In this document: one piece after another, positions 2,596 to 40,063 of the stretch
Position numbering within the stretch: position 1 is the stretch's first letter
Layout: the number at the start of each line of letters is the position of its first letter
Source of the DNA: an uncultured Flavobacteriales bacterium
GTDB taxonomy: Bacteria; Bacteroidota; Bacteroidia; Flavobacteriales; UBA7312
Length of the DNA: 51,578 nucleotides
Direction: 5' to 3'
Assembly (NCBI GenBank): GCA_963991165.1
Contig: CAXDOW010000002.1
Span: 1 to 51,578, forward strand
Position numbers and translations under genes: made by a program
Notes under the pieces: model-generated
Told to the model about the DNA's origin: nothing
What the model saw: the letters and a program-made list of their open reading frames with translations, nothing else
Database searches by the model: none

Positions 2596-3675
2596 ATGAA
2601 CACGAAATACGATGATATACAACATCAACTATCGACAATTCGGCCCAGAGAATACTCCAAAAGCCGAAATTATATTGATGGTGCAGTAACTTACTTATCC
2701 CCCTATATTTCTAGGGGCGTCTTGTCCACTAAACAAGTATTAAACAGTTGTTTAGAAAGAGGCTTTAAACCCTACCAAATAGAAAAATTCATTCAAGAAT
2801 TGGCATGGCGTGATTATTGGCAACGTATTTGGCAAGAAAAAGATATCAATGTGGCTATTAAGCAACCTCAAGAGGCGGTCGAAAACGATGCCATATCACA
2901 ACGTTTGGTAGATGCTAACAGCGGTATTAACACTATTGACCAAGCCATACTAAAACTGTATGAAACGGGCTACATGCACAATCACTTAAGAATGTATGTG
3001 GCGGCCTTGGCATGCAATATCGCAAAGAGTCATTGGAAAGTACCCGCTCAGTGGATGTATTTTCATTTAATCGATGGAGACTGGGGATCCAACGCTCTTA
3101 GTTGGCAATGGGTTTGTGGTGCTAATAGTCGAAAAAAATACCTTGCCAATCAAGAAAATATAAACCGTTACACGCGCAGTGAACAACGACATACGTTCTT
3201 GGACACAGATTATGAATCTTTAGCACAGTTGCCCACTCCAAGCCATCTAAAGCCATTGAATGACAAAGAACATACGACTCCACTTCCAAATGCGTCGTCA
3301 ATACAACTTGACAATTCCATGCCCTTGTGTGTGTATAACTACTACAATTTAGACCCGTTGTGGCGTGCCAATGAACAGTGTCAACGAGTTTTATTATTGG
3401 AACCAAGTGTTTTCCAAAAGTACCCCATTGGAAAACGGCCACTAGATTTCATGATATCATTGGCACAAAACATTCCCAACATTCATCTTTTTGTTGGTGA
3501 GTTTGGCGCACTTACAAAGAAGTTTTCCAACACCGTCTATTACAAGGAACATCCTTTGAACACTCATTACAATGGTGTGCAAGACCAAAGAGATTGGCTG
3601 ACCAGTATCCAAGGATATTACCCTTCTTTCTTTGCTTTTTGGAAACGAGCTAAAAAAGAACTAAACCTAAAATAA
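2596..3675 (+). CDS. Photolyase/cryptochrome-family flavoprotein with inverted topology (NewPHL-like): N-terminal FAD-binding catalytic domain, C-terminal alpha/beta-like domain
   Basis: Photolyase FAD-domain motifs begin almost at residue 1: YLSPYISRG, ELAWRDYWQRIW, TGYMHNHLRMYVA, HLIDGDWGSNALSWQWVCG. There is no N-terminal antenna domain. The last ~130 aa (LLLEPSVFQKYPIGKRPLDFMISLAQNIPNIHLFVGEF...) resemble a Rossmann-like lobe. Confidence 0.7.
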   Translation: MNTKYDDIQHQLSTIRPREYSKSRNYIDGAVTYLSPYISRGVLSTKQVLNSCLERGFKPYQIEKFIQELAWRDYWQRIWQEKDINVAIKQPQEAVENDAISQRLVDANSGINTIDQAILKLYETGYMHNHLRMYVAALACNIAKSHWKVPAQWMYFHLIDGDWGSNALSWQWVCGANSRKKYLANQENINRYTRSEQRHTFLDTDYESLAQLPTPSHLKPLNDKEHTTPLPNASSIQLDNSMPLCVYNYYNLDPLWRANEQCQRVLLLEPSVFQKYPIGKRPLDFMISLAQNIPNIHLFVGEFGALTKKFSNTVYYKEHPLNTHYNGVQDQRDWLTSIQGYYPSFFAFWKRAKKELNLK

Positions 3676-5180
3676 TGTCAGAAAACAACTCTCAAAATAG
3701 CACTGCCTTAATTGTATTTCCACATCAACTTTTTGAGCAATCCCCTTTGTTGAATCAAAAAGGGGTTTTTTATATCGTAGAAGAACCACTCTTTTTTAGC
3801 CAATACCAATTTCATAAACACAAGCTGTTGTATCATCGAAGTTCCATGCAGTTTTATGCTGATTTTTTGCGTCAAAAAAACCGTCAAGTGATTTATATTT
3901 CACATTTTGAGACTACCTCTGACGTAAGACACTTGCTGCCACACTTAAAACAGCAAGGAATTGAGAAAATAGGCCTGATAGACTTAGATGACAATTACCT
4001 ACATCGTCGATTACATCAAACAGCCCAACAAGAAAATATACTTTGCAAATGCTACGAAAGCCCTTTGTTTTTGAATGAAAAAAGCGATTTATCGGCCTTT
4101 TTTAAGGCAGAAAAAAAGAAATTTTTCCACACCACTTTTTACATCAATCAACGCCAAAGCCGAAGTATATTACTGAATGATAATAGGAGTCCACTGGGGG
4201 GTAAATGGAGCTTTGATACAGAAAATAGAAAAAAGTACCCTAAAGATAAAATACCACCTAGTTTTCCAACCCTTACGTCTGACTCTTATTTTGTGGAAGC
4301 AATCAATTATGTCAAACACTATTTTCCCCATAATCCAGGAGTGTTACCAACACACCCATTATATCCTCATACTCATTCATTAGCTACGAGCTGGCTAATG
4401 ATTTTTTTGGAACAACGTCTCAATGAGTTTGGCACCTTTGAGGACGCCATTGTTCAAGATGAACACTTTTTGAATCACAGCGTTTTGTCGCCAATGCTCA
4501 ACAATGGCCTCATTACTCCAAAGCAAGTGATTGACGCAAGTTTATCATTCAAAGACCGTGTTCCCCTCAATTCCTTAGAAGGTTTTGTTCGTCAAATCAT
4601 TGGCTGGAGGGAATTTATTCGAGGAATATACTTAATAAAAGGAAGTCAAGAGAGAACCACTAATTTTTTTAAGCATCACAGAAAGATCCCCTCATCTTTC
4701 TACACCGCAACCACAGGCATATTGCCCATTGATGTAACAATACAAAAAGTAAACCACACGGCTTACGCTCACCACATAGAACGACTGATGATTTTGGGAA
4801 ATTTCATGCTTCTTTGCGAATTTGACCCTGATGAGGTTTACCGTTGGTTTATGGAGCTATTTATTGATGCCTACGACTGGGTCATGGTTCCTAACGTATA
4901 TGGCATGAGTCAATTTGCCGATGGTGGTCTAATGGCTACCAAGCCCTATATCAGCAGTAGCAATTACATCAAAAAAATGAGTGATTACCCTAACGGTCAA
5001 TGGCAATCTATTTGGGACGCTCTATATTGGCGATTCATTGACAAAAATCGAGCAATTTTTACCCAAAATATACGCATGAAATTCATGATTAGTTTGTTAG
5101 ACAAAATGCCTGTAGAGAAAAAAACTAATCACATACAGTTAGCGGACAACTATTTAAGGACGCTGGAGGGACAAAAATGA
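3675..5180 (+). CDS. Cryptochrome/photolyase-family protein of the PhrB/CryB (bacterial 6-4 photolyase, COG3046-like) type, lacking the Fe-S cysteine ligands
   Basis: Supporting motifs are the N-terminal LIVFPHQLF...FHKHKLLYHRSSMQFYADFL, then GWREFIRG, AYAHHIERLMILGNF, FIDAYDWVMVPNVYGMSQFADGG and KPYISSSNYIKKMSDY. The start overlaps the upstream stop (TAATG). The whole protein has only 3 Cys. Confidence 0.8.
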   Translation: MSENNSQNSTALIVFPHQLFEQSPLLNQKGVFYIVEEPLFFSQYQFHKHKLLYHRSSMQFYADFLRQKNRQVIYISHFETTSDVRHLLPHLKQQGIEKIGLIDLDDNYLHRRLHQTAQQENILCKCYESPLFLNEKSDLSAFFKAEKKKFFHTTFYINQRQSRSILLNDNRSPLGGKWSFDTENRKKYPKDKIPPSFPTLTSDSYFVEAINYVKHYFPHNPGVLPTHPLYPHTHSLATSWLMIFLEQRLNEFGTFEDAIVQDEHFLNHSVLSPMLNNGLITPKQVIDASLSFKDRVPLNSLEGFVRQIIGWREFIRGIYLIKGSQERTTNFFKHHRKIPSSFYTATTGILPIDVTIQKVNHTAYAHHIERLMILGNFMLLCEFDPDEVYRWFMELFIDAYDWVMVPNVYGMSQFADGGLMATKPYISSSNYIKKMSDYPNGQWQSIWDALYWRFIDKNRAIFTQNIRMKFMISLLDKMPVEKKTNHIQLADNYLRTLEGQK

Positions 5181-5290: not shown

Positions 5291-5917
5291 ATGCTAAAGA
5301 CCCAATCAGTTTGTTTTTCCTATGATTCCTCACGCACATTTCAATTTCCTGATATCCAACTTGTAGAAGGACAAAACCTTCTAATATTGGGGCAATCTGG
5401 GGTTGGAAAAACTACCTTTATTCAAATATTAGCGGGATTATTGCATCCCAATTCAGGATTTATAGATTTGAATGACACCAAAATTAATCAGTTGTCTTCT
5501 AAAGATTTAGACCATTTTAGAGGAAAAAATATTGGAATGGTGTTTCAACGCCCCCATTTTGTCAAAAACCTATCTATCATTGAAAATTTAGAGTTGTCTC
5601 TCTATCTGTCAAACAACCCATCGGATAAAAAACGCGCCATGGAATTGTTAGATCAAATTGGCTTGGCCGACAAATACAATCAAAAACCAGATCAATTAAG
5701 CGAAGGTGAGCAACAAAGGGCCTCCATTGCTTTGGCAGTATTAAAAAATCCAGATTTAATTTTGGCGGATGAACCAACATCCAGTTTAGATGACATTAAT
5801 TGTCAGACCATAGTTACTTTACTAAAAGAACAAGCTGCCTCCACCAACGCTCACTTGATTATCATTACACACGATCAACGGTTAAAAAATGAATTCAACA
5901 ACACAATAACACTATGA
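5291..5917 (+). CDS. ABC transporter ATP-binding protein (MacB/LolD/FtsE-like)
   Basis: Walker A GQSGVGKTT, signature LSEGEQQR and Walker B LILADEPTSSLD are all present. There is a 4-nt overlap with the downstream permease gene. Confidence 0.9.
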   Translation: MLKTQSVCFSYDSSRTFQFPDIQLVEGQNLLILGQSGVGKTTFIQILAGLLHPNSGFIDLNDTKINQLSSKDLDHFRGKNIGMVFQRPHFVKNLSIIENLELSLYLSNNPSDKKRAMELLDQIGLADKYNQKPDQLSEGEQQRASIALAVLKNPDLILADEPTSSLDDINCQTIVTLLKEQAASTNAHLIIITHDQRLKNEFNNTITL

Positions 5918-7155
5918 ATATTACTCGTTTAAGTTGGAGAAACCTTACTAGTAGTCCGCTCAACACAACTTTGAGTTTGCTATTGATGACGTTTGGGGTG
6001 GGTATTATTTCACTATTGCTATTGTTGAATAACGAAGTTGAACAGCAATTACAACGCAATCTTAGAGGGATAGATATGGTTGTTGGTGCTAAAGGAAGCC
6101 CCCTTCAATTAATCCTATCTTCGGTATACCACGTAGATAATCCAACAGGAAACATCTCGTTTGAAGAAGCCAATGAATTAAACAAAAATCCATTGGTTGA
6201 ATCGACCATTCCGCTTTCCTTTGGAGATTCTTACAATGGGTTTAAAATAGTAGGAACTACCCACGATTATGTAGAACTGTATCAAGGCGTTTTGAAAGAA
6301 GGCCAATTGTGGACTTACCCCCTTGAAGCTGTTCTTGGAAGTGCTGTTGCAGAAGTCAATCAATTAAAGTTAGGTGACACCTTTCATGGCTCACACGGTT
6401 TAGTAGAAGGAGGTCATATCCATGATGAACATACTTATTATGTGGTGGGGATTTTGGAACCGTCAAACTCTGTTTTGGACAATCTGATTTTGACCAATAC
6501 AGAAAGTATTTGGTTGGTTCATCACCCTGAAACAGACCACCATGAATGCGATGATCCAGACCATCATCACCATGAACATGATGAGTCAACAGGTCATCAT
6601 TCAAATACTGATATGATGATTACTTCTATGTTGGTGACGTTTAAAAGCCCCATTGGATTGATACAAATACCTCGAAAAATAAACGAAACGACCAATCTTC
6701 AAGCAGCAGTTCCATCTTTTGAAATAAATCGATTAGTTAATCTATTGGGATTTGGTGTTCAGACGATTAACATGATTGCTATCATTATAATTCTTGTATC
6801 TGGCTTAAGTATTTTTATTAGTCTGTATAATTCGTTGAAAAAAAGACGTTACGAATTGGCTTTAATGAGAGTTCATGGGGCAAGTAGGTGGCAGATGGTT
6901 CAATTAGTCCTTCAGGAAGGGCTGTTTTTGTCCATTATCGGGGCCTTATTTGGTATAGTCATAAGTAGGATAGCGCTGTTTGTCATGCCACTCTTCTTAG
7001 ATTTGAAATATGGATTAAACACCATTCCTATCGGATTAATTAAGGAAGAATTATGGTTGTTTCCTCTAGCTTTAATCATAGGGTTGTCAGCGTCTTTCAT
7101 TCCAATTATTCAAACGTATAACATTAATATTCCAAAAACGCTATCCAATGCTTAG
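5914..7155 (+). CDS. FtsX/MacB-type ABC permease with a histidine-rich periplasmic loop
   Basis: An N-terminal TM helix is followed by a large extracytoplasmic domain and a C-terminal FtsX-like 3-TM bundle. The loop contains HGSHGLVEGGHIHDEH and VHHPETDHHECDDPDHHHHEHDESTGHHS. Confidence 0.85.
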   Translation: MNITRLSWRNLTSSPLNTTLSLLLMTFGVGIISLLLLLNNEVEQQLQRNLRGIDMVVGAKGSPLQLILSSVYHVDNPTGNISFEEANELNKNPLVESTIPLSFGDSYNGFKIVGTTHDYVELYQGVLKEGQLWTYPLEAVLGSAVAEVNQLKLGDTFHGSHGLVEGGHIHDEHTYYVVGILEPSNSVLDNLILTNTESIWLVHHPETDHHECDDPDHHHHEHDESTGHHSNTDMMITSMLVTFKSPIGLIQIPRKINETTNLQAAVPSFEINRLVNLLGFGVQTINMIAIIIILVSGLSIFISLYNSLKKRRYELALMRVHGASRWQMVQLVLQEGLFLSIIGALFGIVISRIALFVMPLFLDLKYGLNTIPIGLIKEELWLFPLALIIGLSASFIPIIQTYNINIPKTLSNA

Positions 7156-7585
7156 GTATTTTTTGATTTTATCCCTTTTTATGTTTCCAAAATTCAGCTT
7201 TTCTCAAACAGAAATAACTTGGGAAACCTTAGCCGACATAGAGTTTTCCGACAAATATATTGAAGAAGTTGATGAATATTTTTTGTATCCACATTTTGGA
7301 CCATCTGTTATAGAGCTAGAAGGACAAACTGTTATTCTGAGAGGGTTTATGTTAGCGATTGATCCAGCAGAAGGATATTACATTCTATCAAAAGGCCCTT
7401 TCTCTTCCTGTTTTTTTTGTGGCGTTGGAGGCCCTGAGACCATTGTAGAGTTAAAAATGAAGTCAGAAAAGGCCTATTTCGTAATGGATGAAATGGTCAC
7501 AATGAAAGGTACTTTGAAACTTAATGCGGATGATATTTATCAGTGCAATTATATTTTTGAAGATGCTGAAGTTCATCGTCGTTGA
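7148..7585 (+). CDS. Small secreted accessory protein, DUF3299-like (assignment from memory)
   Basis: It has a signal peptide (MLRYFLILSLFMFPKFSFSQ) and the segment GQTVILRGFMLAID...YILSKGPFSSCFFCG. An 8-nt overlap with the permease gene suggests translational coupling. Confidence 0.5.
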   Translation: MLRYFLILSLFMFPKFSFSQTEITWETLADIEFSDKYIEEVDEYFLYPHFGPSVIELEGQTVILRGFMLAIDPAEGYYILSKGPFSSCFFCGVGGPETIVELKMKSEKAYFVMDEMVTMKGTLKLNADDIYQCNYIFEDAEVHRR

Positions 7586-8770: not shown

Positions 8771-9904
8771 TTGTCTCCAATCAAGTTACATATCACCTCT
8801 AAATCCTTAAACGAAGAAGAATGGAACGCTTTGGTAAACGATGACCTACCGTTTCTTCTATTATCATTTAATCGAGCTTTTGAAGTAAGTCATAAATCCA
8901 ATATGACGCATTTATTTTATATATCAAACAATCCAGAACAACAATTAGTAGGATATGCACAGGCACTTTATCTTAATTGGCAAAATATTCATTCGTACCA
9001 ACAAAGAAACAAACTAAGTAGAGGAATTATTAGTGTTCTAATGAAGTTGACTCGTATTAAAATTGTAGCGATGGGAAATGGCTTTTTAACAAACATTCAA
9101 AATGTGTCTATCAAAACACTAAATGACAATATAGCTTTCCTTACCTCTTTAATTCAAACAATAGGTAATCAACTAAACGTCAATAATTTTATTTTTCCAG
9201 ATCACTATTTTAACGCCCTAAACATCTCAAAGCCTGAAGATAGCAATCCCAACTTTATAAGAGTAGAGGTTGAGGAAGATATGGTTTTGTCCATCAAACA
9301 ACAATGGAAATGTTTTGATGACTATTCTCAATCACTGAAAAAAAAGTACAAAACACGTCAAAGGGGAGTAATGAAAAAAAGTCGTGATGTCCTCATCAAA
9401 AAATTAACCCTTAACGACATAAAGCTACACCAAAATCGTATTCAACAATTATTCTTGAACGTACAAAGAAAGGCTTCTTTTGGGGCTGTTAGCTTTAACA
9501 CCAATACCTTTCAACTGTTAACATCACTTTCCATTCCATATTGCAATGTTTACGGGTATTTTTTAAATGATACTTTGATTGGTTTTTCTTCAGAAATTTA
9601 CGACCAATCCAAATTATATTCTTATTTCATTGGTCTAGATTATCAGTACAATGTTAGCCATCGACTCTACGAACGCATTCTTTTAGAAAACATCAACCAC
9701 GGCATAGACTTAGGTAAAAAAGAAATAGTCTTCGGACGAACGGCCGCTGAATTTAAAAGTAATGTAGGTGCCGTTCCTCTAAAGTCATTTATATACATTT
9801 ATGTCAAAAACCCACTTTTAAGATTTATCTTAAATCCAATTCTTAGCAGAATAAAACCTAAAAAATGGGTGCAAAGGTCCCCATTTAAACAAGAGCAAAC
9901 TTAA
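8771..9904 (+). CDS. GNAT/FemAB-like acyltransferase-fold protein (weak call); apparent TTG start
   Basis: The 377-aa ORF has a length and C-terminal half (FGRTAAEFKSNVGA) reminiscent of FemAB/BioF2-like acetyltransferases. There is no in-frame ATG between the upstream stop (8720) and 8771. Confidence 0.35.
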   Translation: MSPIKLHITSKSLNEEEWNALVNDDLPFLLLSFNRAFEVSHKSNMTHLFYISNNPEQQLVGYAQALYLNWQNIHSYQQRNKLSRGIISVLMKLTRIKIVAMGNGFLTNIQNVSIKTLNDNIAFLTSLIQTIGNQLNVNNFIFPDHYFNALNISKPEDSNPNFIRVEVEEDMVLSIKQQWKCFDDYSQSLKKKYKTRQRGVMKKSRDVLIKKLTLNDIKLHQNRIQQLFLNVQRKASFGAVSFNTNTFQLLTSLSIPYCNVYGYFLNDTLIGFSSEIYDQSKLYSYFIGLDYQYNVSHRLYERILLENINHGIDLGKKEIVFGRTAAEFKSNVGAVPLKSFIYIYVKNPLLRFILNPILSRIKPKKWVQRSPFKQEQT

Positions 9905-10911
9905 TTAAGCTTAAGTACTCCGTCAATTGCTGGCTCTTTCATCATTATTCGATAAGACACGCCTAATGTAAACTGATGTTGAGTGGCAAACTGAAAGCCA
10001 TTCAAGTCTTCGTATAAGGGAATATCTGCTGACACAAAATAACTTAAGTCATTATGTGAATAACTAATTTGTGGAACAAAAAGTAATTTTTCACTTCCCG
10101 TGTTATGGTCTTCAATATTGTAATTTATTAAATCGACTTTTTCAGCGGATTGTGTCTGACCAACAGTTTCGTACTTTAACTGACCCGTGACTCCAAAACC
10201 CTTGTATATCGTTTTTCCTATATAAAGACTCATACTAGAGTAATCGCCAAATTTTTGTCCCAATGAGTTATATGACTTTTTAATGTAAAGACTATTAGCA
10301 AAAATTCGCAATTTTCTTTTAGGATAAATTCTGTAAAAAAAGAAACAAAGCATGGCATCTAGAGAGCCATTAGTTAACTGAACAGCTGTTGGATTATATG
10401 CGTAAATATCACCTAATATTGGATTTGAAAACTTCAAACTGGAGTCTCTGTAACTCCCCAATGGAAATTTCAACCCTAGTCCTAATGTAATCTCGGTCCT
10501 ATGATTTTCTCTTTTCAAATTAGCCACATTGTAACGAGGAAAAATAATCAAATCTGAAATACCTGATGCGGAATAGGATTCGCTCTTATTATCTAATGAT
10601 TTACTTAAAAAATAACCCAAAGCCACTGACATACTTAGCTTATCGTTCAAGCCATAATCTGTTTTCAAAAACAGATAATCCGTTCTTAATGTATCGGCTA
10701 AATTAGAAACTGTATCTCTGTTATTATTTGTTTTGAAAGAATAACTAGAAACATATTGATATGATGTAGCAATTTCCAACTGATTTTCAAGTAAAACCCC
10801 TGATGCGGCTCCACCGGCAATAGGACTTGATGACCCACCAGAACAACATCCTTGTGAGTATAACAGTTTTACGGCAAAAAGCAATAGTGTTAAAAGAACA
10901 CATTTTTTCAT
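9901..10911 (-). CDS. Outer-membrane beta-barrel protein (MetA/transporter-like) with an N-terminal CC motif
   Basis: A signal peptide is followed by a mature N-terminus QGCCSGGSSSPIAGGAASG. Alternating amphipathic beta-strand patterning runs throughout, ending in an aromatic-rich TLGVSYRI strand. Confidence 0.55.
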   Translation of the reverse strand: MKKCVLLTLLLFAVKLLYSQGCCSGGSSSPIAGGAASGVLLENQLEIATSYQYVSSYSFKTNNNRDTVSNLADTLRTDYLFLKTDYGLNDKLSMSVALGYFLSKSLDNKSESYSASGISDLIIFPRYNVANLKRENHRTEITLGLGLKFPLGSYRDSSLKFSNPILGDIYAYNPTAVQLTNGSLDAMLCFFFYRIYPKRKLRIFANSLYIKKSYNSLGQKFGDYSSMSLYIGKTIYKGFGVTGQLKYETVGQTQSAEKVDLINYNIEDHNTGSEKLLFVPQISYSHNDLSYFVSADIPLYEDLNGFQFATQHQFTLGVSYRIMMKEPAIDGVLKLN

Positions 10912-10930
10912 AGCTATATTATTTTGACTT

Positions 10931-11689
10931 TTAGTTCAGTTTACTAAAAATGATTTTATTAGGTTCGTTTAAAATATTGATGAAGTAATTTCCTTTTGAC
11001 AAATGAGAAATATCAATTTGAGATCCTGAGGCAATGTTTTCTTGAATCATCACCACCTCACCCAACATATTAACAATAGTAAGCGATAATTGTTTTTGTC
11101 TATTGGAAGTAATGGTAATTTGATTATTTATAGAAGGGTTAGGGAAAACTTGACTGCTTTCTTTACCTGTAATGGTCTCAATGCTTGATGTTTTACATTC
11201 GGACACTGCCAAAGAGATAGCTTCTTCTAAGCCATCTGTAGAATTATTCTGGTCAAAATTTCTATTGAAATAAACCTTCCTAGAATTGCAACCAACTACA
11301 ACAGTCTTAGGCATGCCATCTCCTCCATAATCACTCATGCTAATTTGTGGACTTGAAAAGGTAGTCACCCCTCCCATTTGGAAATTAGTAGCCCAGGTCT
11401 GTAGTTGTGAACATGATGTGTTGGCATAATCATCAACTAACAAGAATTTTACTATTTCTTGATCATAAGATTCCGCCGCTAAAAAACTTGATAAGGTCGG
11501 ACTAATACACGGTGCACAAGGCATAACCCATGAAATAACAACCACCTTTCCAGCATCTAAATCATCAAAAAGATTATACATCTCGCCATTACAGTCTTCA
11601 ACTGCAAAGTTAGTTGCCACACTTTGAGCGATAGCCAACTGCATCCCAAACAACAATGTAGTAAAGATACTTAATACTAAACTCTTCAT
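10931..11689 (-). CDS. TlpA/ResA-like thiol-disulfide oxidoreductase fused to a T9SS type-A C-terminal sorting domain
   Basis: It has a signal peptide, the thioredoxin motif VVISWVMPCAPC, and the C-terminal tail VFPNPSINNQITI...GNYFINILNEPNKIIFSKLN. Confidence 0.7.
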   Translation of the reverse strand: MKSLVLSIFTTLLFGMQLAIAQSVATNFAVEDCNGEMYNLFDDLDAGKVVVISWVMPCAPCISPTLSSFLAAESYDQEIVKFLLVDDYANTSCSQLQTWATNFQMGGVTTFSSPQISMSDYGGDGMPKTVVVGCNSRKVYFNRNFDQNNSTDGLEEAISLAVSECKTSSIETITGKESSQVFPNPSINNQITITSNRQKQLSLTIVNMLGEVVMIQENIASGSQIDISHLSKGNYFINILNEPNKIIFSKLN

Positions 11690-11704
11690 TTTAAGTAAAC
11701 TATG

Positions 11705-12052
11705 TTAGTTTCTGTCATACTTACAACAAGAGTGTAAGTTTTCATATACTTCATCGTCGGCCTTATGATTTTCTGTATCGTAGCCCACTGAAGCAATCTT
11801 TTTTTGAATATCATCAAGTGTTATTTGATTCGAGTAAAACTTGACAACCATTTCTTTAGTTTCGGAACTCCATTTGGCTGATATAACCCCATCCATCGAC
11901 ATGGCGGCTTTAGTGATCTTCTCGTTACACATCCCACAATTTCCCCATACTTTAAATTTTTCCTTGACCTTATCTCCCTTAGCAAAGCCTGTAAAGGGAG
12001 CCATTAGGCAGAGAGCGAAAGAGAACATGATAACTGATTTGTATGCTTTCAT
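11705..12052 (-). CDS. Heavy-metal-associated (HMA) domain protein, secreted
   Basis: A signal peptide and the motif VWGNCGMCNEKITKA (a CxxC metal site) are followed by a second C-terminal Cys pair, HSCCKYDRN. Confidence 0.8.
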   Translation of the reverse strand: MKAYKSVIMFSFALCLMAPFTGFAKGDKVKEKFKVWGNCGMCNEKITKAAMSMDGVISAKWSSETKEMVVKFYSNQITLDDIQKKIASVGYDTENHKADDEVYENLHSCCKYDRN

Positions 12053-12074
12053 ATGATTATAGTATTTAGTTTGC

Positions 12075-12082
12075 CAAATGTA
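12075..12082 (-). promoter_or_regulatory. Candidate internal -7 box (TACATTTG on the minus strand) ahead of the HMA gene
   Basis: The plus strand reads CAAATGTA, which is the reverse complement of TAnnTTTG. It lies 23 nt upstream of the ATG at 12052. Confidence 0.35.
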
Positions 12083-12125
12083 TTTGTTTTTTCAAGTAGA
12101 ACCAATTACTTGTTTAAATATCTTA

Positions 12126-13109
12126 TTAGTCCAAAGATATAAACAAGGAATCTGTAAGGGCATATAAGAAAGCTATTAAATCTATTTTTTCGTTTTTTGT
12201 TAAATTAAACGGTTGAATAATCTCGCTCTTATTAGGGTGCGATTTTCCACCTCTTGAATAGTGGTCAATGACCTCTTCCAAGGTTTGTAAACTGCCATCG
12301 TGCATATAGGGATAGGTCAACCCTATATTTCTGAGTGTTGGAACTTTAAATATAGCCCTATCTTTTTCGTGTCCAAACAAACGCATTCGGCCGGAATCAG
12401 GATAATTGGTATACAAACCATTATTGGTCAATGAGCCATTGGTAAAATTAAATCCCCCATGACACTTTGAACAATAAAGCTCATCAAAAAAAAGTGATTT
12501 ACCTCGTTTTTGCGATGGGTTTAGTGCCGTAGTATCTTGATGATAATAAAATTTATCGTAAAGTGAATTTCCACTTATTAGTGTTCTTTCGTAAGTAGCA
12601 ATGGCCTTAGTAATGACGCTGGGGTCTGGCTCACATCCATAAGCTAGATTAGATAAACGGACATAATAGGGGTTCTTTTTCATTCTTTCAGCAACTAGTA
12701 TAATGCTAAAATCAAATTCTTGTTTCTCATGAATAGGAACATTGACTTGTGCTTCCAAACTGGGATTTAGCCCATCGAGTAAGAACTTATCTTGATAAGC
12801 CACATTTGTGAGTGTTGGAGTGTTTCTAGAAACGGATTGGTTTCTTATACCTATTCCTTTGGGTCTTCGATCGGTAAAGGCAAACTGCGGTTTATGACAA
12901 CTTGCACAAGATACACTTGAGTCTCTAGATAGAATAGTGTCAAAAAAAAGTGCTTTTCCTAACTGGATACGACTCTCTGTAATGGCATTATCGGAGGGCA
13001 CATATGGATCTGGAAACCCTTTTGGGATGTGAAGCAATGCGTTATTACCCTCTTTCAAGCTAGCAAAGACCGTCACACAGAGTAAGCAAAAAAGTATGGG
13101 TTTTATCAT
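12126..13109 (-). CDS. Di-haem cytochrome c peroxidase of the MauG/MbnH type
   Basis: Two haem-c motifs are present (CASCHKP and CSKCHGG), together with the conserved FKVPTLRNI and PYMHDG segments. An ATGA overlap links it to the upstream MbnP-like gene. Confidence 0.9.
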   Translation of the reverse strand: MIKPILFCLLCVTVFASLKEGNNALLHIPKGFPDPYVPSDNAITESRIQLGKALFFDTILSRDSSVSCASCHKPQFAFTDRRPKGIGIRNQSVSRNTPTLTNVAYQDKFLLDGLNPSLEAQVNVPIHEKQEFDFSIILVAERMKKNPYYVRLSNLAYGCEPDPSVITKAIATYERTLISGNSLYDKFYYHQDTTALNPSQKRGKSLFFDELYCSKCHGGFNFTNGSLTNNGLYTNYPDSGRMRLFGHEKDRAIFKVPTLRNIGLTYPYMHDGSLQTLEEVIDHYSRGGKSHPNKSEIIQPFNLTKNEKIDLIAFLYALTDSLFISLD

Positions 13110-14098
13110 CTAGTAACTGTAAACTGATGCCGTTGTTGAATATTTCCAGAGTTGAAAATAGCAATATAAACTCCCGAGGGCAACTCTGACTTCACAAAGT
13201 AATTGCCTTCAAATCCTATGTTTTTTTCATTGACCACAGGTTTTCCTTGCATATCGTAGATGCTAAGAGCGTAGTCGTCTTTTGGTAAGTTATAAAACAA
13301 GACAGGAGCGTAAGGCAAGGTATAGTCCGTGTAGATATTAGTGACGAGACGAGACGTTGAAATACTGCTTGTCGTATCAGCAACGTTGGTGGTGAAAACT
13401 TGTTCCTCATTGGTGTTGTCAACCGCTTTTACATTGGAGGTGTATGCCCCATGCTGAAATCCTACCGACGCCAAGTCCATGTTATTAAACCACCGATCAA
13501 CATTGACATACAAAGGAATCGTAATTTGACCATTTTCTACTTCTAGTGGAGAACTAAATTCTAAAGGATCAATAGATCTTAATAAAACATCTCCAAAACA
13601 CTCTACTTGAAACGGTTTGTTAGGGTTTCCATCGTCATTATTGTCAACTTTTCCGTGCAGAGTAAGGAAAAAGTAGCCAGAGGGCCAACCCCAATCCATT
13701 GGTGGAACTTTTGGCCCCAAAGGGTGCGACGGTGGATAATTACTCGTATTACCATGATTAGCAACATAATCTACCCCCAAATCAAACTCTATTTTTTCAA
13801 TGCTACTAATGGCGTAAGTGCTATCAATACTATAGTTAGTAACGTTGCCCTCTCCTAAGATGTAAATGCCGTTCAATGGCGTCTGTTGACCACCATCATG
13901 GGTTACTTTTAGAGAAGACAGATAATACCTAGCGCGCTCTACCCTTACAGCACGGTCTTGATTATCTGTAAAGTTTTGATTGAGCATAAAAGGTTCACCT
14001 TTAAATAGGTGGTTTAACTCCAATTTCAATGTGTTTTGTGCAGATAATGAAAGCTGGATTAATACGACTAGCGTTAAAAAGGAAAATACGTTTTTCAT
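13106..14098 (-). CDS. MbnP-like putative copper-binding protein fused to a T9SS type-A C-terminal sorting domain
   Basis: It has a signal peptide, a core LELNHLFKGEPFMLNQ...RARYYLSSLKVTHDGG...PPMDWGWPSGYFFLTLHGK resembling the MbnP family as I remember it, and a position immediately 5' of the MbnH-like peroxidase. The C-terminal ~80 aa (YALSIYDMQGKPV...GVYIAIFNSG...FTVTR) look like a Por secretion tail. Confidence 0.55.
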   Translation of the reverse strand: MKNVFSFLTLVVLIQLSLSAQNTLKLELNHLFKGEPFMLNQNFTDNQDRAVRVERARYYLSSLKVTHDGGQQTPLNGIYILGEGNVTNYSIDSTYAISSIEKIEFDLGVDYVANHGNTSNYPPSHPLGPKVPPMDWGWPSGYFFLTLHGKVDNNDDGNPNKPFQVECFGDVLLRSIDPLEFSSPLEVENGQITIPLYVNVDRWFNNMDLASVGFQHGAYTSNVKAVDNTNEEQVFTTNVADTTSSISTSRLVTNIYTDYTLPYAPVLFYNLPKDDYALSIYDMQGKPVVNEKNIGFEGNYFVKSELPSGVYIAIFNSGNIQQRHQFTVTR

Positions 14099-38574: not shown

Positions 38575-40035
38575 TCAGTACCAGCCAACCACCACACTTT
38601 GTTTTTGAAGAATGGGGGATTGATTGGAGTGAATAGCCTCTAGCCATACAATGTATCGACCTGTAGCGGCTGGTTCATTTCTGTCCGTTAGTCCGTCCCA
38701 ATAGTAGGTGTTGACAGTGCCAAAAAGAGTGTTGTTAATGAGTGTTTTTATGAGAAAACCCTGAACATTAAAAATAAGTAATCGCCCTCGAAAACCGCTT
38801 TGTTCAAATGTAAGTTGTATGCTTAGTATATCGTCTTGTCCATCGTTGTTGGGCGTGAAAACAGGGGGGCTTAAAGTCATAATGTCTTTGGCTGGTACTA
38901 TTTGGTGAGCTTGTGAATTGGGTAAAGTGGGTGTGGAAAATCCTGAAGGTTCTGATGCTGAATGCCAATTGTCATTGGCCGTTAAATCGGTATTTATGCG
39001 TTCCAATGACACGCCTTCGACGTCTTGCAAAAGGTCAAAGTGCATGTTTTCATCATAATGAAATTCATCAATACTAATGCTATCTAAAGCAAGAACCACT
39101 ACACCCTGATCATTGTTGTAAGTGGGCATGCTTTCCAGTTCAATAATTTGCTCTTCAAGAGCTTGGGGATGGTAATCTAATAGGGTCTGTTTGGAGATGC
39201 ATAAAACCAAAAGGTCGTTAGGCAACATAAAATCGTATCCTTCAGAAATGGGTTTCAAATTGGCGGCTTGTTGAGCGTAATAATTACCCAATTGCAACCC
39301 TTTTATACAAAGTGTTTTGGAGCTCCTATTAATAATTTCTACAAAATCGTTATCGCCTTCAAGGGGGTTAAACAGTACCTCGTTGATGACGATATCCTGA
39401 GCTTGTGGATACAAAAAGGTATCTACAAAAGAGTAACCATCAACTTCAATATTATCAAAGAAAAACTTATCGGATCGTGTGCTGGTATAGACACATTCTA
39501 TACCAAAATATTGACTGCTTAAATAGGTGTGGTCAAAACAGCTGCCTTGCAATGAAAACGTCGAGTCGCCAAAATGCTTGGCATATACATACCAATTCCC
39601 TATGCTATCCCGATGAACCAAAAGATGAATTTCTACCAATGGAACATCAATGAAATCCATTGGCCCTGTAATGAGTTTTTCAGAGATTCCATGAGTTGAT
39701 TTGTAGAAGCTAATTTCGTCATTAGTCCCTCCCAATTTGACGTAATAACCGTTTTGCATACTATCCATCGACAGATGAACGATCGTATAGTTGCTACTTG
39801 AGGGGTTAAAGTCCATTCGTATGTCTAATTGCCATTGCCCCTCCAACAAGGCCATTGAAGAATGCCAAATTTGGGCCTGATCGGCTTGTGGTGGTGCCAT
39901 TAGCTGCAGACGGCTAAGTGAATCTACGACGAACTTACTGGTATCACCTTGCCAATTACTAAAACCATCAAAATATTCAGAAAATTGAGCGGTCAACATT
40001 AAAGGGAATAGAAACAGGACTATTAGCTTTTTCAT
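38575..40035 (-). CDS. Secreted protein with a lamin-tail (LTD) domain and a gliding-motility/T9SS type-B-like C-terminal domain
   Basis: It has a signal peptide, an LTD segment INEVLFNPLEGDNDFVEIINRS and the C-terminus FTPNNDGQDDILSI...LLIFNVQG...YWDGLTDRNEPAATGRYIVWLEA. I use the ATG at 40035. Confidence 0.65.
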   Translation of the reverse strand: MKKLIVLFLFPLMLTAQFSEYFDGFSNWQGDTSKFVVDSLSRLQLMAPPQADQAQIWHSSMALLEGQWQLDIRMDFNPSSSNYTIVHLSMDSMQNGYYVKLGGTNDEISFYKSTHGISEKLITGPMDFIDVPLVEIHLLVHRDSIGNWYVYAKHFGDSTFSLQGSCFDHTYLSSQYFGIECVYTSTRSDKFFFDNIEVDGYSFVDTFLYPQAQDIVINEVLFNPLEGDNDFVEIINRSSKTLCIKGLQLGNYYAQQAANLKPISEGYDFMLPNDLLVLCISKQTLLDYHPQALEEQIIELESMPTYNNDQGVVVLALDSISIDEFHYDENMHFDLLQDVEGVSLERINTDLTANDNWHSASEPSGFSTPTLPNSQAHQIVPAKDIMTLSPPVFTPNNDGQDDILSIQLTFEQSGFRGRLLIFNVQGFLIKTLINNTLFGTVNTYYWDGLTDRNEPAATGRYIVWLEAIHSNQSPILQKQSVVVGWY

Positions 40036-40063
40036 TTTTAAGAAAATCAATATCTATGTCATT

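What the first reader, a model, noticed from the sequence alone, without database searches (positions are those of the whole stretch)
9901..14098. MbnP/MbnH-like copper module apparently re-routed to the cell surface through T9SS, with HMA, thioredoxin and a CC-motif porin
Five co-directional, tightly spaced genes form this cluster. The first two overlap by ATGA, and a possible internal promoter sits at 12075-12082. They encode:
1. an MbnP-like protein;
2. a di-haem MauG/MbnH-like peroxidase with two CxxCH motifs;
3. a secreted HMA protein with both GNCGMC and a terminal HSCC pair;
4. a TlpA-like thioredoxin (PCAPC);
5. a small outer-membrane barrel whose mature N-terminus is QGCCSGG.

In methanotroph-type systems, MbnH converts a Trp of periplasmic MbnP to kynurenine to build a Cu site, and a TonB-dependent receptor is the usual partner. 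Here the MbnP-like and thioredoxin proteins both end in type-A Por sorting tails, which predicts export and surface attachment. There is no TonB-dependent receptor and no methanobactin precursor gene, and a small barrel with a Cys pair is present instead. I have not seen this combination described as a unit. It may represent a Bacteroidota-specific extracellular copper (or other thiophilic metal) capture and redox module.
Basis: partly seen in the sequence, partly recalled or inferred. Interest (0 to 1): 0.7.

Follow-up and report, generated by a model that had tools for sequence, protein, structure and literature searches.

The report
Surface-routed MbnP/MbnH joined to Cys-relay operon
Five co-directional genes for secreted, probably copper-handling proteins are really there, but they are two separately conserved Bacteroidota modules lying side by side: a copper-protein/haem-enzyme pair whose copper protein carries a cell-surface export tag, and a widespread, unstudied three-gene operon full of invariant cysteine motifs.

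Summary
Five minus-strand genes (14098..9901) encode:
- an MbnP-family protein with a T9SS type A tail;
- an MbnH-like di-haem enzyme;
- a secreted HMA protein (CGMC plus HSCC);
- a CxxC protein with a T9SS tail;
- an outer-membrane barrel whose mature N-terminus is QGCCSGG.

Comparative data show two independent modules, not one unit.

**Module A, MbnP(CTD)-MbnH.** The pair is adjacent in 76 of 79 Bacteroidota loci. All 24 sampled MbnP relatives carry the T9SS tail.

**Module B, HMA / CxxC-CTD / CC-barrel.** The triad is kept in essentially every locus that holds the barrel (Trx-like 63/65, HMA 48/49). MbnH lies upstream in only 5 of 31 loci, all close relatives of the window. A Bacteroidetes-type -7 box in front of the HMA gene fits a separate promoter.

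**Links between the modules.** The same HMA-HxCC family also sits directly upstream of MbnP-MbnH in other lineages. TonB-linked receptors with a CC motif, multicopper oxidases, CopA-like and Cus-like genes recur nearby.

**Best reading (inferred).** This is an envelope route for copper, or another thiophilic metal, between the cell surface and the periplasm. The metal, the direction of transport and the kynurenine site are untested. The thioredoxin fold is only weakly supported.

The parts
13106..14098 (-). MbnP-family protein with a T9SS type A C-terminal sorting domain (330 aa). It has a signal peptide ending ...SLSA|Q. The MbnP core is residues 22-211 (13466-14035). The tail is residues 268-326 (13121-13297).
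   Evidence: Pfam PF20243 E 1.2e-23. TIGR04183 30.9 bits against a cut-off of 23. The AF2 model has pLDDT 86.7. Foldseek's top hit is MbnP 7L6G (E 6e-8, probability 1.0, TM 0.41-0.47), and the tail matches the NucA CTD 8glk_D.
13685..13699 (-). MDWGW: the WxW motif (W136, W138) with the preceding Met134. This is the candidate kynurenine/copper site.
   Evidence: W136 and W138 are invariant and M134 is at least 90% conserved in 24 relatives. TIGR04052 'MbnP_like_WxW' aligns to residues 86-153. In M. trichosporium MbnP, Kyn174 derives from the Trp of a conserved WxW motif (PMC11951088).
12126..13109 (-). MbnH-like di-haem cytochrome c peroxidase/MauG-family enzyme (327 aa). Haem motifs are CASCH (12894-12908) and CSKCH (12459-12473). 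It overlaps the MbnP gene by ATGA.
   Evidence: CCP_MauG E 6.9e-47. TIGR04039 MbnH family 270.8 bits, best NCBIfam hit but below its cut-off. The best PDB match is 6E1C (a di-haem enzyme; identified from memory as MbnH of M. trichosporium) at E 8e-41 over the full length, against about 1e-13 for MauG. It is adjacent to MbnP in 76/79 loci.
12075..12082 (-). TACATTTG, a Bacteroidetes-type -7 promoter box 22 nt upstream of the HMA start codon, inside the only sizeable intergenic gap (73 nt).
   Evidence: Present. The same motif lies 10-60 nt (mostly 13-31) before the HMA start in 21 of 49 triad loci, against about 0.035 expected per locus. On its own in this window it is not above chance.
11705..12052 (-). 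Secreted HMA-domain metallochaperone (115 aa) with CGMC (11927-11938) and a C-terminal LHSCCKYDR tail (HSCC 11723-11734).
   Evidence: PF00403 E 1.3e-9. Best NCBIfam hits are the MerTP HMA domain and CopZ. Both motifs are conserved in 51 orthologues. The same family sits next to MbnPH in 21/79 loci.
10931..11689 (-). CxxC protein with a T9SS type A tail (252 aa). The N-terminal domain (residues 22-172, 11174-11626) has invariant W..MPCxxC (CAPC 11507-11518), DDYAN (11420-11434), GMPK (11306-11317) and Cys33/Cys93. The tail is residues 181-250 (10940-11149). It probably has a thioredoxin-like fold.
   Evidence: Por_Secre_tail 49.2 bits. Invariants are from 25 relatives. There is no Pfam/NCBIfam hit for the N-terminal domain. 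Weak in-register matches to thiol-disulfide oxidoreductases: 2lja, 3kcm, ResA, 4k9z, 2l5o (E 0.07-1.5). hhalign P 0.0025. Longer relatives insert PKD/PA14/SprB spacers before the tail.
9901..10911 (-). Outer-membrane beta-barrel (336 aa). Its mature N-terminus, QGCCSGG...PIAGGAA.GVL (10792-10854), is invariant across the family.
   Evidence: 735 homologues with no Pfam domain. The invariant N-terminal segment is seen in 27 sequences. The AF2 model has pLDDT 74.3. Foldseek's best hits are the COG4313 channel 4RL8 (TM 0.62/0.76) and FapF. There is a weak Phenol_MetA_deg hit, E 0.007.

Best explanation
The locus joins two independently conserved Bacteroidota envelope modules that most likely traffic copper, or another thiophilic metal, between the cell surface and the periplasm.

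Module A (MbnP-CTD plus MbnH):
- Both proteins enter the periplasm through Sec.
- The di-haem MbnH-like enzyme is inferred to oxidise a Trp of the invariant WxW motif of the MbnP-like protein to kynurenine, creating a copper site.
- The folded protein is then exported by the type IX secretion system and is displayed on the surface or released. This would make it a functional analogue of the surface copper protein MopE of methanotrophs.

Module B (own promoter):
- A periplasmic HMA chaperone carries CxxC plus an HxCC tail.
- A plugged barrel has a flexible N-terminal Cys-Cys segment that could sit in the lumen.
- A surface-displayed CxxC protein, probably with a thioredoxin-like fold, completes the set.
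- Together they are inferred to form a thiolate ligand-exchange relay that moves a metal ion across the outer membrane without TonB.

The HMA protein is the shared hub. In one Flavobacteriales clade, including this window, MbnPH has been placed directly upstream of the triad.

Shown: domain and fold assignments, sorting tails, motif invariance and gene-neighbourhood statistics.
Inferred: the identity of the metal, kynurenine formation, the relay, and the direction of transport (uptake slightly favoured over export).
For: Family and fold:
- MbnP.
- MbnH-like.
- HMA.
- Barrel.

Surface routing:
- TIGR04183 is above its cut-off on both proteins.
- It is present in 24/24 and 25/25 relatives.
- Spacer domains typical of surface proteins occur in longer Trx-like relatives.
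- The window encodes other T9SS cargo.

Two modules:
- MbnP-MbnH adjacent in 76/79 loci.
- Triad: Trx-like 63/65, HMA 48/49, MbnH upstream 5/31.
- In three diverse contigs the triad stands alone.
- The -7 box recurs before the HMA gene in triad-only loci.

Hub:
- The HMA-HxCC family lies directly upstream of MbnP-MbnH in L003, L005 and L006.
- It lies within 8 kb of MbnP in 21/79 loci.

Metal context:
- Near MbnPH: multicopper-oxidase-like proteins with T9SS tails, a gene cluster that looks like a CopA-type P-type ATPase (read from its sequence, not scanned against families), and HYC_CC_PP.
- Next to the triad: a Cus-like RND system in L081 and probably L143, and a TonB-linked receptor with a CC motif in L082, L094 and L146.

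Invariant motifs: Cys motifs in all three triad proteins and WxW in MbnP.

The biochemistry of MbnP/MbnH is taken from PMC11951088. MopE/CorA surface proteins with partner di-haem peroxidases are described in PMC3621798.
Against: - No experiment or expression data exist. All relatives are annotated as hypothetical proteins or carry only generic family or domain names.
- TIGR04052 and TIGR04039 score far below their equivalog cut-offs (32 vs 140; 271 vs 363). These are distant relatives of the characterised pair, and the di-haem protein scores almost as well against ordinary peroxidases.
- Foldseek TM to 7L6G is only 0.41-0.47.
- The His and Met copper ligands could not be mapped because no model coordinates were available.
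- The thioredoxin fold is not significant by any sequence test.
- The barrel's N-terminal segment is modelled with pLDDT below 50, so its position in the lumen is conjecture.
- A surface thiol protein has no obvious reductant.
- Vicinal Cys pairs and the best HMA hits (MerTP) fit mercury as well as copper.
- The adjacent Cus-like genes in two loci fit export as well as uptake.
- The two modules are adjacent in only one clade, so their coupling may be incidental.
Confidence: 0.5

Rival explanations
1. One reading: all five genes form one dedicated functional unit, a Bacteroidota-specific extracellular copper capture and redox module that replaces the TonB-dependent partner with a small Cys-pair barrel.
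For: - The genes are co-directional and tightly spaced, with an ATGA overlap.
- The five-gene order is conserved in relatives down to about 61-64% identity: L001, L083, L086, L087, L102, with partial copies in L084, L088 and L089.
- The HMA family is independently linked to MbnPH elsewhere.
Against: - Only 1 of 79 MbnP-anchored loci and 5 of 31 barrel-anchored loci with enough sequence show the combination.
- Each module is conserved alone across many families.
- There is a promoter-like box between the modules.
- TonB-linked receptors do accompany both modules in other lineages.
Confidence: 0.15
2. The HMA/CxxC-CTD/barrel triad is a detoxification route. It moves Cu(I), Ag(I) or Hg(II) out of the periplasm, or sequesters it at the surface. 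MbnP-CTD is a secreted metal sink rather than an acquisition protein.
For: - The triad lies directly after a CusCBA-like RND system in L081 (Pfam-annotated), and after homologous genes in L143.
- The best NCBIfam hits of the HMA protein are the MerTP HMA domain and CopZ.
- Multicopper-oxidase-like proteins and a gene cluster that looks like a CopA-type ATPase (by eye) lie near MbnPH.
- From general knowledge, vicinal Cys pairs are a hallmark of Hg(II) hand-over in MerT and MerA.
Against: - The triad is a core-like operon in many marine Flavobacteriales from metal-poor waters, and it has no adjacent merA or regulator.
- Four loci place it behind a TonB-linked receptor, which is an uptake device (three of the four carry the CC motif).
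- Characterised MbnP relatives are linked to copper acquisition contexts (PMC3621798).
- A passive barrel cannot pump against a gradient.
Confidence: 0.25
3. The triad is not a metal transporter. The CxxC-CTD protein is a surface thiol-disulfide oxidoreductase, the barrel a COG4313-like channel for a hydrophobic or peptide substrate, and MbnH simply a periplasmic peroxidase detoxifying H2O2.
For: - The closest barrel folds are a hydrophobic-substrate channel and a polypeptide transporter (PMC4493636).
- The di-haem protein matches canonical peroxidases almost as well as MbnH (1e-39 vs 8e-41).
- The Trx-like domain has no metal-protein homologue.
Against: - An HMA metallochaperone is the invariant first gene of the triad (48/49).
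- The only invariant potential ligands of the barrel's N-terminal segment are the Cys-Cys pair.
- MbnH-like is locked to an MbnP-family gene in 76/79 loci, which is unlike housekeeping peroxidases.
Confidence: 0.1

Closest known systems
MbnP/MbnH of Methylosinus trichosporium OB3b (PDB 7L6G; 6E1C, identified from memory as its MbnH)
   Same: - Adjacent gene pair.
- Pfam MbnP hit.
- Best structural match and best PDB sequence match for the di-haem partner.
- Invariant WxW motif, which holds the Trp that becomes kynurenine in the copper site (PMC11951088).
   Different: - About 15% identity.
- Below the TIGR04052/TIGR04039 equivalog cut-offs.
- Carries a T9SS type A tail, so it is predicted to leave the periplasm.
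- No methanobactin genes and no TonB-dependent transporter in this locus.
- The copper ligands His and Met are not mapped.
MopE/CorA with their partner di-haem peroxidases (MCA2590/CorB) in Methylococcus and Methylomicrobium
   Same: A surface-associated or secreted copper-binding protein containing kynurenine, encoded next to a MauG-like di-haem peroxidase (PMC3621798, PMC11951088). This is the same overall logic as a surface-routed MbnP plus MbnH.
   Different: - Different fold and no sequence similarity to MbnP.
- Not exported by T9SS.
- Restricted to methanotrophs.
COG4313 outer-membrane channels (Pput2725, 4RL8) and FapF
   Same: - Best fold matches of the barrel (TM up to 0.76 on the target).
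- Both have an N-terminal segment that occludes the lumen (PMC4493636), as proposed here for the QGCCSGG segment.
- Weak Pfam Phenol_MetA_deg hit.
   Different: - Pfam score is below the gathering threshold.
- Those substrates are hydrophobic molecules or unfolded polypeptides.
- No Cys-Cys motif and no HMA partner.
- The model here may have more than 12 strands, and its N-terminus is low-confidence.
MerP-to-MerT mercury hand-over and CopZ-type Cu(I) chaperones (general knowledge)
   Same: A secreted HMA protein with CxxC that passes a thiophilic metal to a membrane protein bearing a vicinal Cys pair. The best NCBIfam hits of the HMA protein are the MerTP HMA domain and CopZ.
   Different: - The acceptor here would be an outer-membrane barrel, not an inner-membrane helix bundle.
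- No merA or merR nearby.
- An extra HxCC tail on the chaperone.
TlpA/ResA/Sco thioredoxin-fold proteins of copper-centre and cytochrome maturation
   Same: CxxC followed by a cis-Pro-like GMPK loop, aligned in register with 2lja, 3kcm, ResA, 4k9z and 2l5o. Their link to copper delivery is general knowledge.
   Different: - No significant HMM or PDB match.
- Family-specific invariant DDYAN motif and a second Cys pair.
- A T9SS tail places it outside the cell, away from known reductants.

Membership tests
MbnP family (PF20243 / TIGR04052) | Match to the family HMM above the curated threshold | tested here: met
   Pfam PF20243 scores 84.4 bits against a gathering score of 27, E 1.2e-23. The narrower NCBIfam equivalog TIGR04052 scores only 32.4 bits against a cut-off of 140. 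It is therefore a family member but not an equivalog of the characterised protein.
MbnP family (PF20243 / TIGR04052) | Conserved WxW motif that supplies the kynurenine-forming Trp | tested here: met
   W136-G-W138 is invariant in 24/24 relatives. The TIGR04052 alignment covers it.
MbnP family (PF20243 / TIGR04052) | MbnP fold | tested here: met
   Foldseek's top six hits are the six chains of 7L6G (E 6e-8 to 5e-7, probability 1.0), but TM is only 0.39-0.47.
MbnP family (PF20243 / TIGR04052) | Adjacent MbnH-type di-haem partner | tested here: met
   ATGA overlap in the window. Adjacent in 76/79 loci.
MbnP family (PF20243 / TIGR04052) | Kynurenine, His and Met copper site; copper binding | not testable with these tools
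Candidate ligands are M134, H125, H216, H30 and H67.
MbnH family (TIGR04039) / MauG-bCCP superfamily | Two CxxCH haem motifs and the CCP_MauG domain | tested here: met
   CASCH and CSKCH. PF03150 E 6.9e-47.
MbnH family (TIGR04039) / MauG-bCCP superfamily | Score above the curated TIGR04039 cut-off | tested here: not met
   270.8 bits against 362.85. It is still the best NCBIfam hit, ahead of MauG at 216 bits. The best PDB hit is 6E1C at 8e-41, but ordinary peroxidases reach 1e-39.
T9SS type A cargo (TIGR04183 / PF18962) | C-terminal sorting domain above threshold at the extreme C-terminus, plus an N-terminal signal peptide | tested here: met
   TIGR04183 scores 30.9 and 45.5 bits against a cut-off of 23. 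Pfam PF18962 scores 49.2 bits (Trx-like protein, above 27) and 25.8 bits (MbnP-like protein, just below 27). The tail of the MbnP-like model matches the T9SS substrate domain 8glk_D with TM 0.71; the Trx-like family profile matches the same domain by sequence at E 1.2e-7. Present in 24/24 and 25/25 relatives. Actual secretion is not testable.
HMA domain metallochaperones (PF00403) | HMA fold match with the CxxC metal loop | tested here: met
   38.8 bits against 24.8. G(N)CxMC is conserved in 51 orthologues.
Thioredoxin-like TlpA/ResA family | Significant match to a thioredoxin-fold family model or structure | tested here: inconclusive
   No Pfam or NCBIfam hit at E up to 0.1. PDB matches to thiol-disulfide oxidoreductases have E 0.07-1.5 but are in register from CxxC to the GMPK loop. 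hhalign P 0.0025, probability 12%.
COG4313 / Phenol_MetA_deg outer-membrane channels (PF13557) | Family HMM above threshold | tested here: not met
   16.9 bits against 22, E 0.007.
COG4313 / Phenol_MetA_deg outer-membrane channels (PF13557) | [quoted passage not shown] | tested here: inconclusive
   The fold match to 4RL8 is E 2e-9 with TM 0.62/0.76. However, DSSP shows about 13 strand segments, and the N-terminal 14-37 has pLDDT below 50.
Methanobactin operon | MbnA precursor with MbnB/MbnC and an MbnT TonB-dependent transporter nearby | tested here: not met
   The neighbours are HMA, Trx-like and barrel genes, a FemAB-like gene, and cytidylyltransferase/NeuB/epimerase genes. Small precursor ORFs were not searched exhaustively.

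The most novel reading that the evidence does not exclude
Bacteroidota possess a TonB-independent, high-affinity copper uptake route.
- A kynurenine-bearing MbnP displayed by the type IX secretion system captures copper outside the cell.
- It hands the copper through a surface CxxC protein and the Cys-Cys N-terminal arm of a plugged barrel to a periplasmic HMA-HxCC chaperone.
- The HMA/CxxC-CTD/CC-barrel triad would then be a previously unrecognised class of outer-membrane metal translocator working by thiolate ligand exchange.
Probability: 0.15. Interest if true: 0.85.

Novelty: new variant of a known kind. Interest (0 to 1): 0.6.

Why it matters
- **MbnP/MbnH function.** The biological role of MbnP/MbnH is still unsettled even in methanotrophs. 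A large Bacteroidota branch in which every sampled MbnP carries a surface-export tag gives a clear, testable prediction: the copper site is built in the periplasm and used outside the cell. It also points to a possibly more tractable system (Fluviicola and relatives; that cultured strains exist is from memory).
- **The triad.** It is a widespread operon: at least 735 barrel homologues, and 462 Trx-like cluster representatives at E no greater than 1e-10. Two of its three proteins have no family model, yet their Cys motifs are invariant. It is a good candidate for a new way of moving soft metals across an outer membrane.
- **Ecology.** Marine Flavobacteriales are major carbon recyclers, so their trace-metal acquisition matters for ocean biogeochemistry.

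Tried and rejected
- Direct sequence searches of the MbnP core and of the family profile against PDB found no 7L6G match. Only the fold search linked them.
- The copper ligands could not be mapped, because model coordinates are not exposed and the primary papers (PNAS 2021, JBC 2018/2019) are not held.
- Thioredoxin-fold tests with a single sequence, two profiles and hhalign all stayed below significance.
- The exhaustive profile search of the Trx-like domain listed only close family members, so it gave no bridge to known thioredoxin families.
- The sigma-70 promoter and intrinsic terminator scans were at chance level and are not suited to Bacteroidota.
- The literature searches found nothing. 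No held paper mentions MbnH together with Bacteroidetes, and a search on T9SS, copper, thioredoxin and HMA returned nothing describing this triad. Two searches were poorly targeted.
- Rejected: that the cluster is a methanobactin-type system.
- Rejected: that the T9SS tails are chance matches, since they are family-wide.
- Rejected: that the barrel is a general porin. OmpF-type matches have TM of about 0.3.

Full report
**1. What is in the sequence**

Five minus-strand ORFs occupy 14098..9901 exactly as described.
- The first two overlap by ATGA.
- The remaining gaps are 73, 15 and 19 nt.
- All five products begin with a signal-peptide-like hydrophobic segment. Three of the predicted mature N-termini start with Gln (read directly from the sequences).
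- The quoted motifs are all present: WGW (residues 136-138), CASCH and CSKCH, CGMC and HSCC, CAPC, and QGCCSGG.

**2. Family assignments**

MbnP-like protein (protein 1):
- It matches Pfam MbnP well above threshold (E 1.2e-23), and TIGR04183, the T9SS type A tail, at 30.9 bits against a cut-off of 23.
- Its AF2 model (pLDDT 86.7) has MbnP of Methylosinus trichosporium (7L6G) as its six top PDB matches, one for each of the six chains. E values are 6e-8 to 5e-7, probability is 1.0 and TM is 0.39-0.47.
- Its tail superposes on a T9SS substrate sorting domain (8glk_D, TM 0.71).

MbnH-like protein (protein 2):
- It is a CCP_MauG di-haem protein.
- Its best NCBIfam model is the MbnH family (270.8 bits, below the cut-off of 362.85).
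- Its best PDB match is 6E1C (a di-haem enzyme; identified from memory as MbnH of M. trichosporium) at 8e-41. Canonical peroxidases reach 1e-39 and MauG about 1e-13.

HMA protein (protein 3): an HMA domain protein.

Trx-like protein (protein 4):
- Only the sorting tail is recognised (49.2 bits).
- The 150-residue N-terminal domain has no Pfam or NCBIfam hit at E up to 0.1.

Barrel (protein 5):
- It has only a sub-threshold Phenol_MetA_deg hit.
- Its AF2 model (pLDDT 74.3) is closest to the COG4313 channel 4RL8 and to FapF.
- In COG4313 (PMC4493636) an N-terminal segment occludes the lumen of the 12-stranded barrel; that FapF is likewise plugged by an N-terminal segment is from general knowledge.

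**3. The five genes are two modules**

MbnP-anchored loci:
- A scan of species-representative genomes with the MbnP-like family found at least 567 relatives, and 79 loci were fetched. Nearly all are labelled Bacteroidota; a few titles are uninformative or look mis-binned. Families include Crocinitomicaceae, Fluviicola, Parvicellaceae, Saprospiraceae and Lewinellaceae.
- MbnP and MbnH are adjacent in 76 of the 79.
- The Trx-like and barrel genes follow them only in L001, the closest relative at 61% identity.

Barrel-anchored loci:
- The barrel family has 735 homologues, none with a Pfam domain and only 'hypothetical protein' as a name.
- Three diverse contigs and 80 metagenome loci were examined.
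- The order HMA, Trx-like-CTD, barrel is kept almost without exception. Trx-like is adjacent in 63/65 loci; the two exceptions are a frameshift and a duplication. HMA is present in 48/49.
- MbnH lies upstream in only 5 of 31 loci with enough sequence. All five are close relatives of the window, with barrel identity of at least 64%.

Promoter:
- The 73-nt gap between the modules carries TACATTTG, 22 nt before the HMA start codon.
- That motif alone is at chance level in the window (77 found, 71.8 expected).
- However, the same Bacteroidetes -7 box lies 10-60 nt before the HMA start in 21 of 49 triad loci, against about 0.035 expected per locus.

**4. The modules are nevertheless linked**

The triad's HMA proteins share G(N)CxMC and a C-terminal LHxCC(K/Q)Y(D/E)R tail.
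- Proteins of the same type lie directly upstream of MbnP-MbnH in L003, L005 and L006.
- They lie within 8 kb of MbnP in 21 of 79 loci.

Other recurrent neighbours of MbnPH:
- multicopper-oxidase-like proteins with T9SS tails;
- another T9SS-tailed small protein;
- the HYC_CC_PP family;
- a gene cluster that looks like a CopA-type P-type ATPase (judged by eye, not scanned against families).

Other neighbours of the triad:
- The triad follows a CusCBA-like system in L081 and homologous genes in L143.
- In four loci it follows a TonB-linked receptor. In L082, L094 and L146 that receptor carries a KAACCNL(S/A)ESF motif; the fourth copy, in L116, is cut at the contig edge.
- The same receptor type also sits beside MbnPH in L050, L060 and L061.

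So 'no TonB-dependent receptor' holds for this window but not for the wider system.

**5. Conserved features**
- MbnP family: W136 and W138 are invariant. M134, H125, H216, H30 and H67 are invariant or nearly so.
- All 24 sampled MbnP relatives carry the T9SS tail, as do all 25 Trx-like relatives.
- Longer Trx-like relatives insert PKD, PA14 or SprB spacers before the tail, as surface proteins do.
- Trx-like domain: invariant W..MPCxxC, DDYAN, GMPK and a second Cys pair.
- An exhaustive profile search of that domain finds 673 cluster representatives at E up to 0.001, 462 of them at E no greater than 1e-10. Nearly all of the 150 listed are about 250-260 aa.
- Barrel: the mature N-terminus QGCCSGG..PIAGGAA.GVL is invariant in 27 diverse sequences. 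These are the only invariant Cys residues, and no His or Met is invariant.
- The window also encodes other T9SS cargo, so the organism uses this secretion system.

**6. How it probably works**

These steps are inferred unless a tool result is cited.

Module A:
- In M. trichosporium, MbnH converts the Trp of the WxW motif of MbnP into kynurenine. Together with His, Met and water this forms a copper site (PMC11951088).
- Here both proteins should reach the periplasm through Sec.
- T9SS cargo passes through the periplasm before crossing the outer membrane (that it does so folded is general knowledge). MbnH can therefore act first, and the modified protein is then displayed on the surface or released.
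- This parallels MopE/CorA, the surface kynurenine-copper proteins of methanotrophs, which have their own di-haem partners (PMC3621798).

Module B:
- The components read as a ligand-exchange relay: a surface CxxC protein, the barrel's Cys-Cys arm, and a periplasmic HMA with CxxC and HxCC.
- Copper is favoured by the neighbours.
- Mercury or silver cannot be excluded.
- Direction is open. The TonB-linked receptors and the MbnP link point to uptake. The Cus-like neighbours point to export.

**7. Weak points**
- The thioredoxin fold rests on non-significant but in-register matches.
- The barrel's N-terminus is modelled with low confidence.
- The equivalog cut-offs are not met.
- The copper ligands are unmapped.
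- No expression or biochemical data exist.

**8. Novelty**
- No held paper mentions MbnH together with Bacteroidetes, and a search on T9SS, copper, thioredoxin and HMA returned nothing describing this triad. The key primary papers could not be read.
- Annotation pipelines give at least some of these proteins generic labels such as 'MbnP family protein' and 'T9SS type A sorting domain-containing protein'.
- I rate the finding as a new variant of a known kind. It combines a surface-routed MbnP/MbnH branch with an uncharacterised conserved Cys-motif operon.
- Interest is 0.6.

Noticed in passing
window 5291-7585 (+): An ABC ATPase (5291-5917) is followed by an FtsX/MacB-like permease (5914-7155) whose periplasmic loop carries a His/Asp-rich run, HHPETDHHECDDPDHHHHEHDESTGHHSNTD. 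Next comes a secreted 145-aa protein (7148-7585) with SSCFFCGVGGP and no Pfam hit. The set looks metal-related and lies 2.3 kb from the barrel gene. Distantly related FtsX pairs lie about 3.7 kb upstream of the HMA gene in L121, L123 and L150.
   Followed up: partly
L050, L060, L061 (next to MbnPH); L082, L094, L146 (directly upstream of the triad): A TonB-linked outer-membrane receptor with a vicinal-Cys motif, KAACCNL(S/A)ESF(E/S)TN, often preceded by an HYC_CC_PP family gene, accompanies both modules. In L060 an HMA-domain 243-aa protein follows it.
   Followed up: partly
L038-L077 (Saprospiraceae, Lewinellaceae, Chitinophagales loci): In these loci MbnP is followed by two di-haem genes: a close MbnH-like one and a more divergent paralogue (phmmer about 1e-50).
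   Followed up: no
L010, L012, L013, L018, L019, L025, L032 (Crocinitomicaceae/Fluviicola): A larger conserved cluster reads: HYC_CC_PP, HMA-HxCC, a T9SS-tailed 224-aa protein, two multicopper-oxidase-like proteins (at least one family member carries a T9SS tail), one or two MbnP-CTD genes, and MbnH.
   Followed up: partly
L008 5404-5748; L021 4842-5186: In some lineages the HMA-HxCC protein has a lipoprotein-type Cys after its signal peptide (..TISC|SSG..LASC|ANS) instead of a plain signal peptide.
   Followed up: no
window 47026-51507 (+) and 38575-40050 (-): Other T9SS cargo in the window: a 1493-aa SprB-repeat protein with a type A tail, and a 491-aa protein with a sub-threshold CHU_C (type B) tail hit (26.3 bits against a gathering score of 27).
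   Followed up: yes
window 8771-9904 (+): A 377-aa protein with a weak FemAB_like hit converges on the barrel gene, and the two stop codons overlap. It is syntenic downstream of the barrel in the window's close relatives (L001, L083-L086, L089, L102) but not in other triad loci.
   Followed up: partly
window 2596-5180 (+): A pair of photolyase-related genes (FAD_binding_7, then a DPRP family protein).
   Followed up: no
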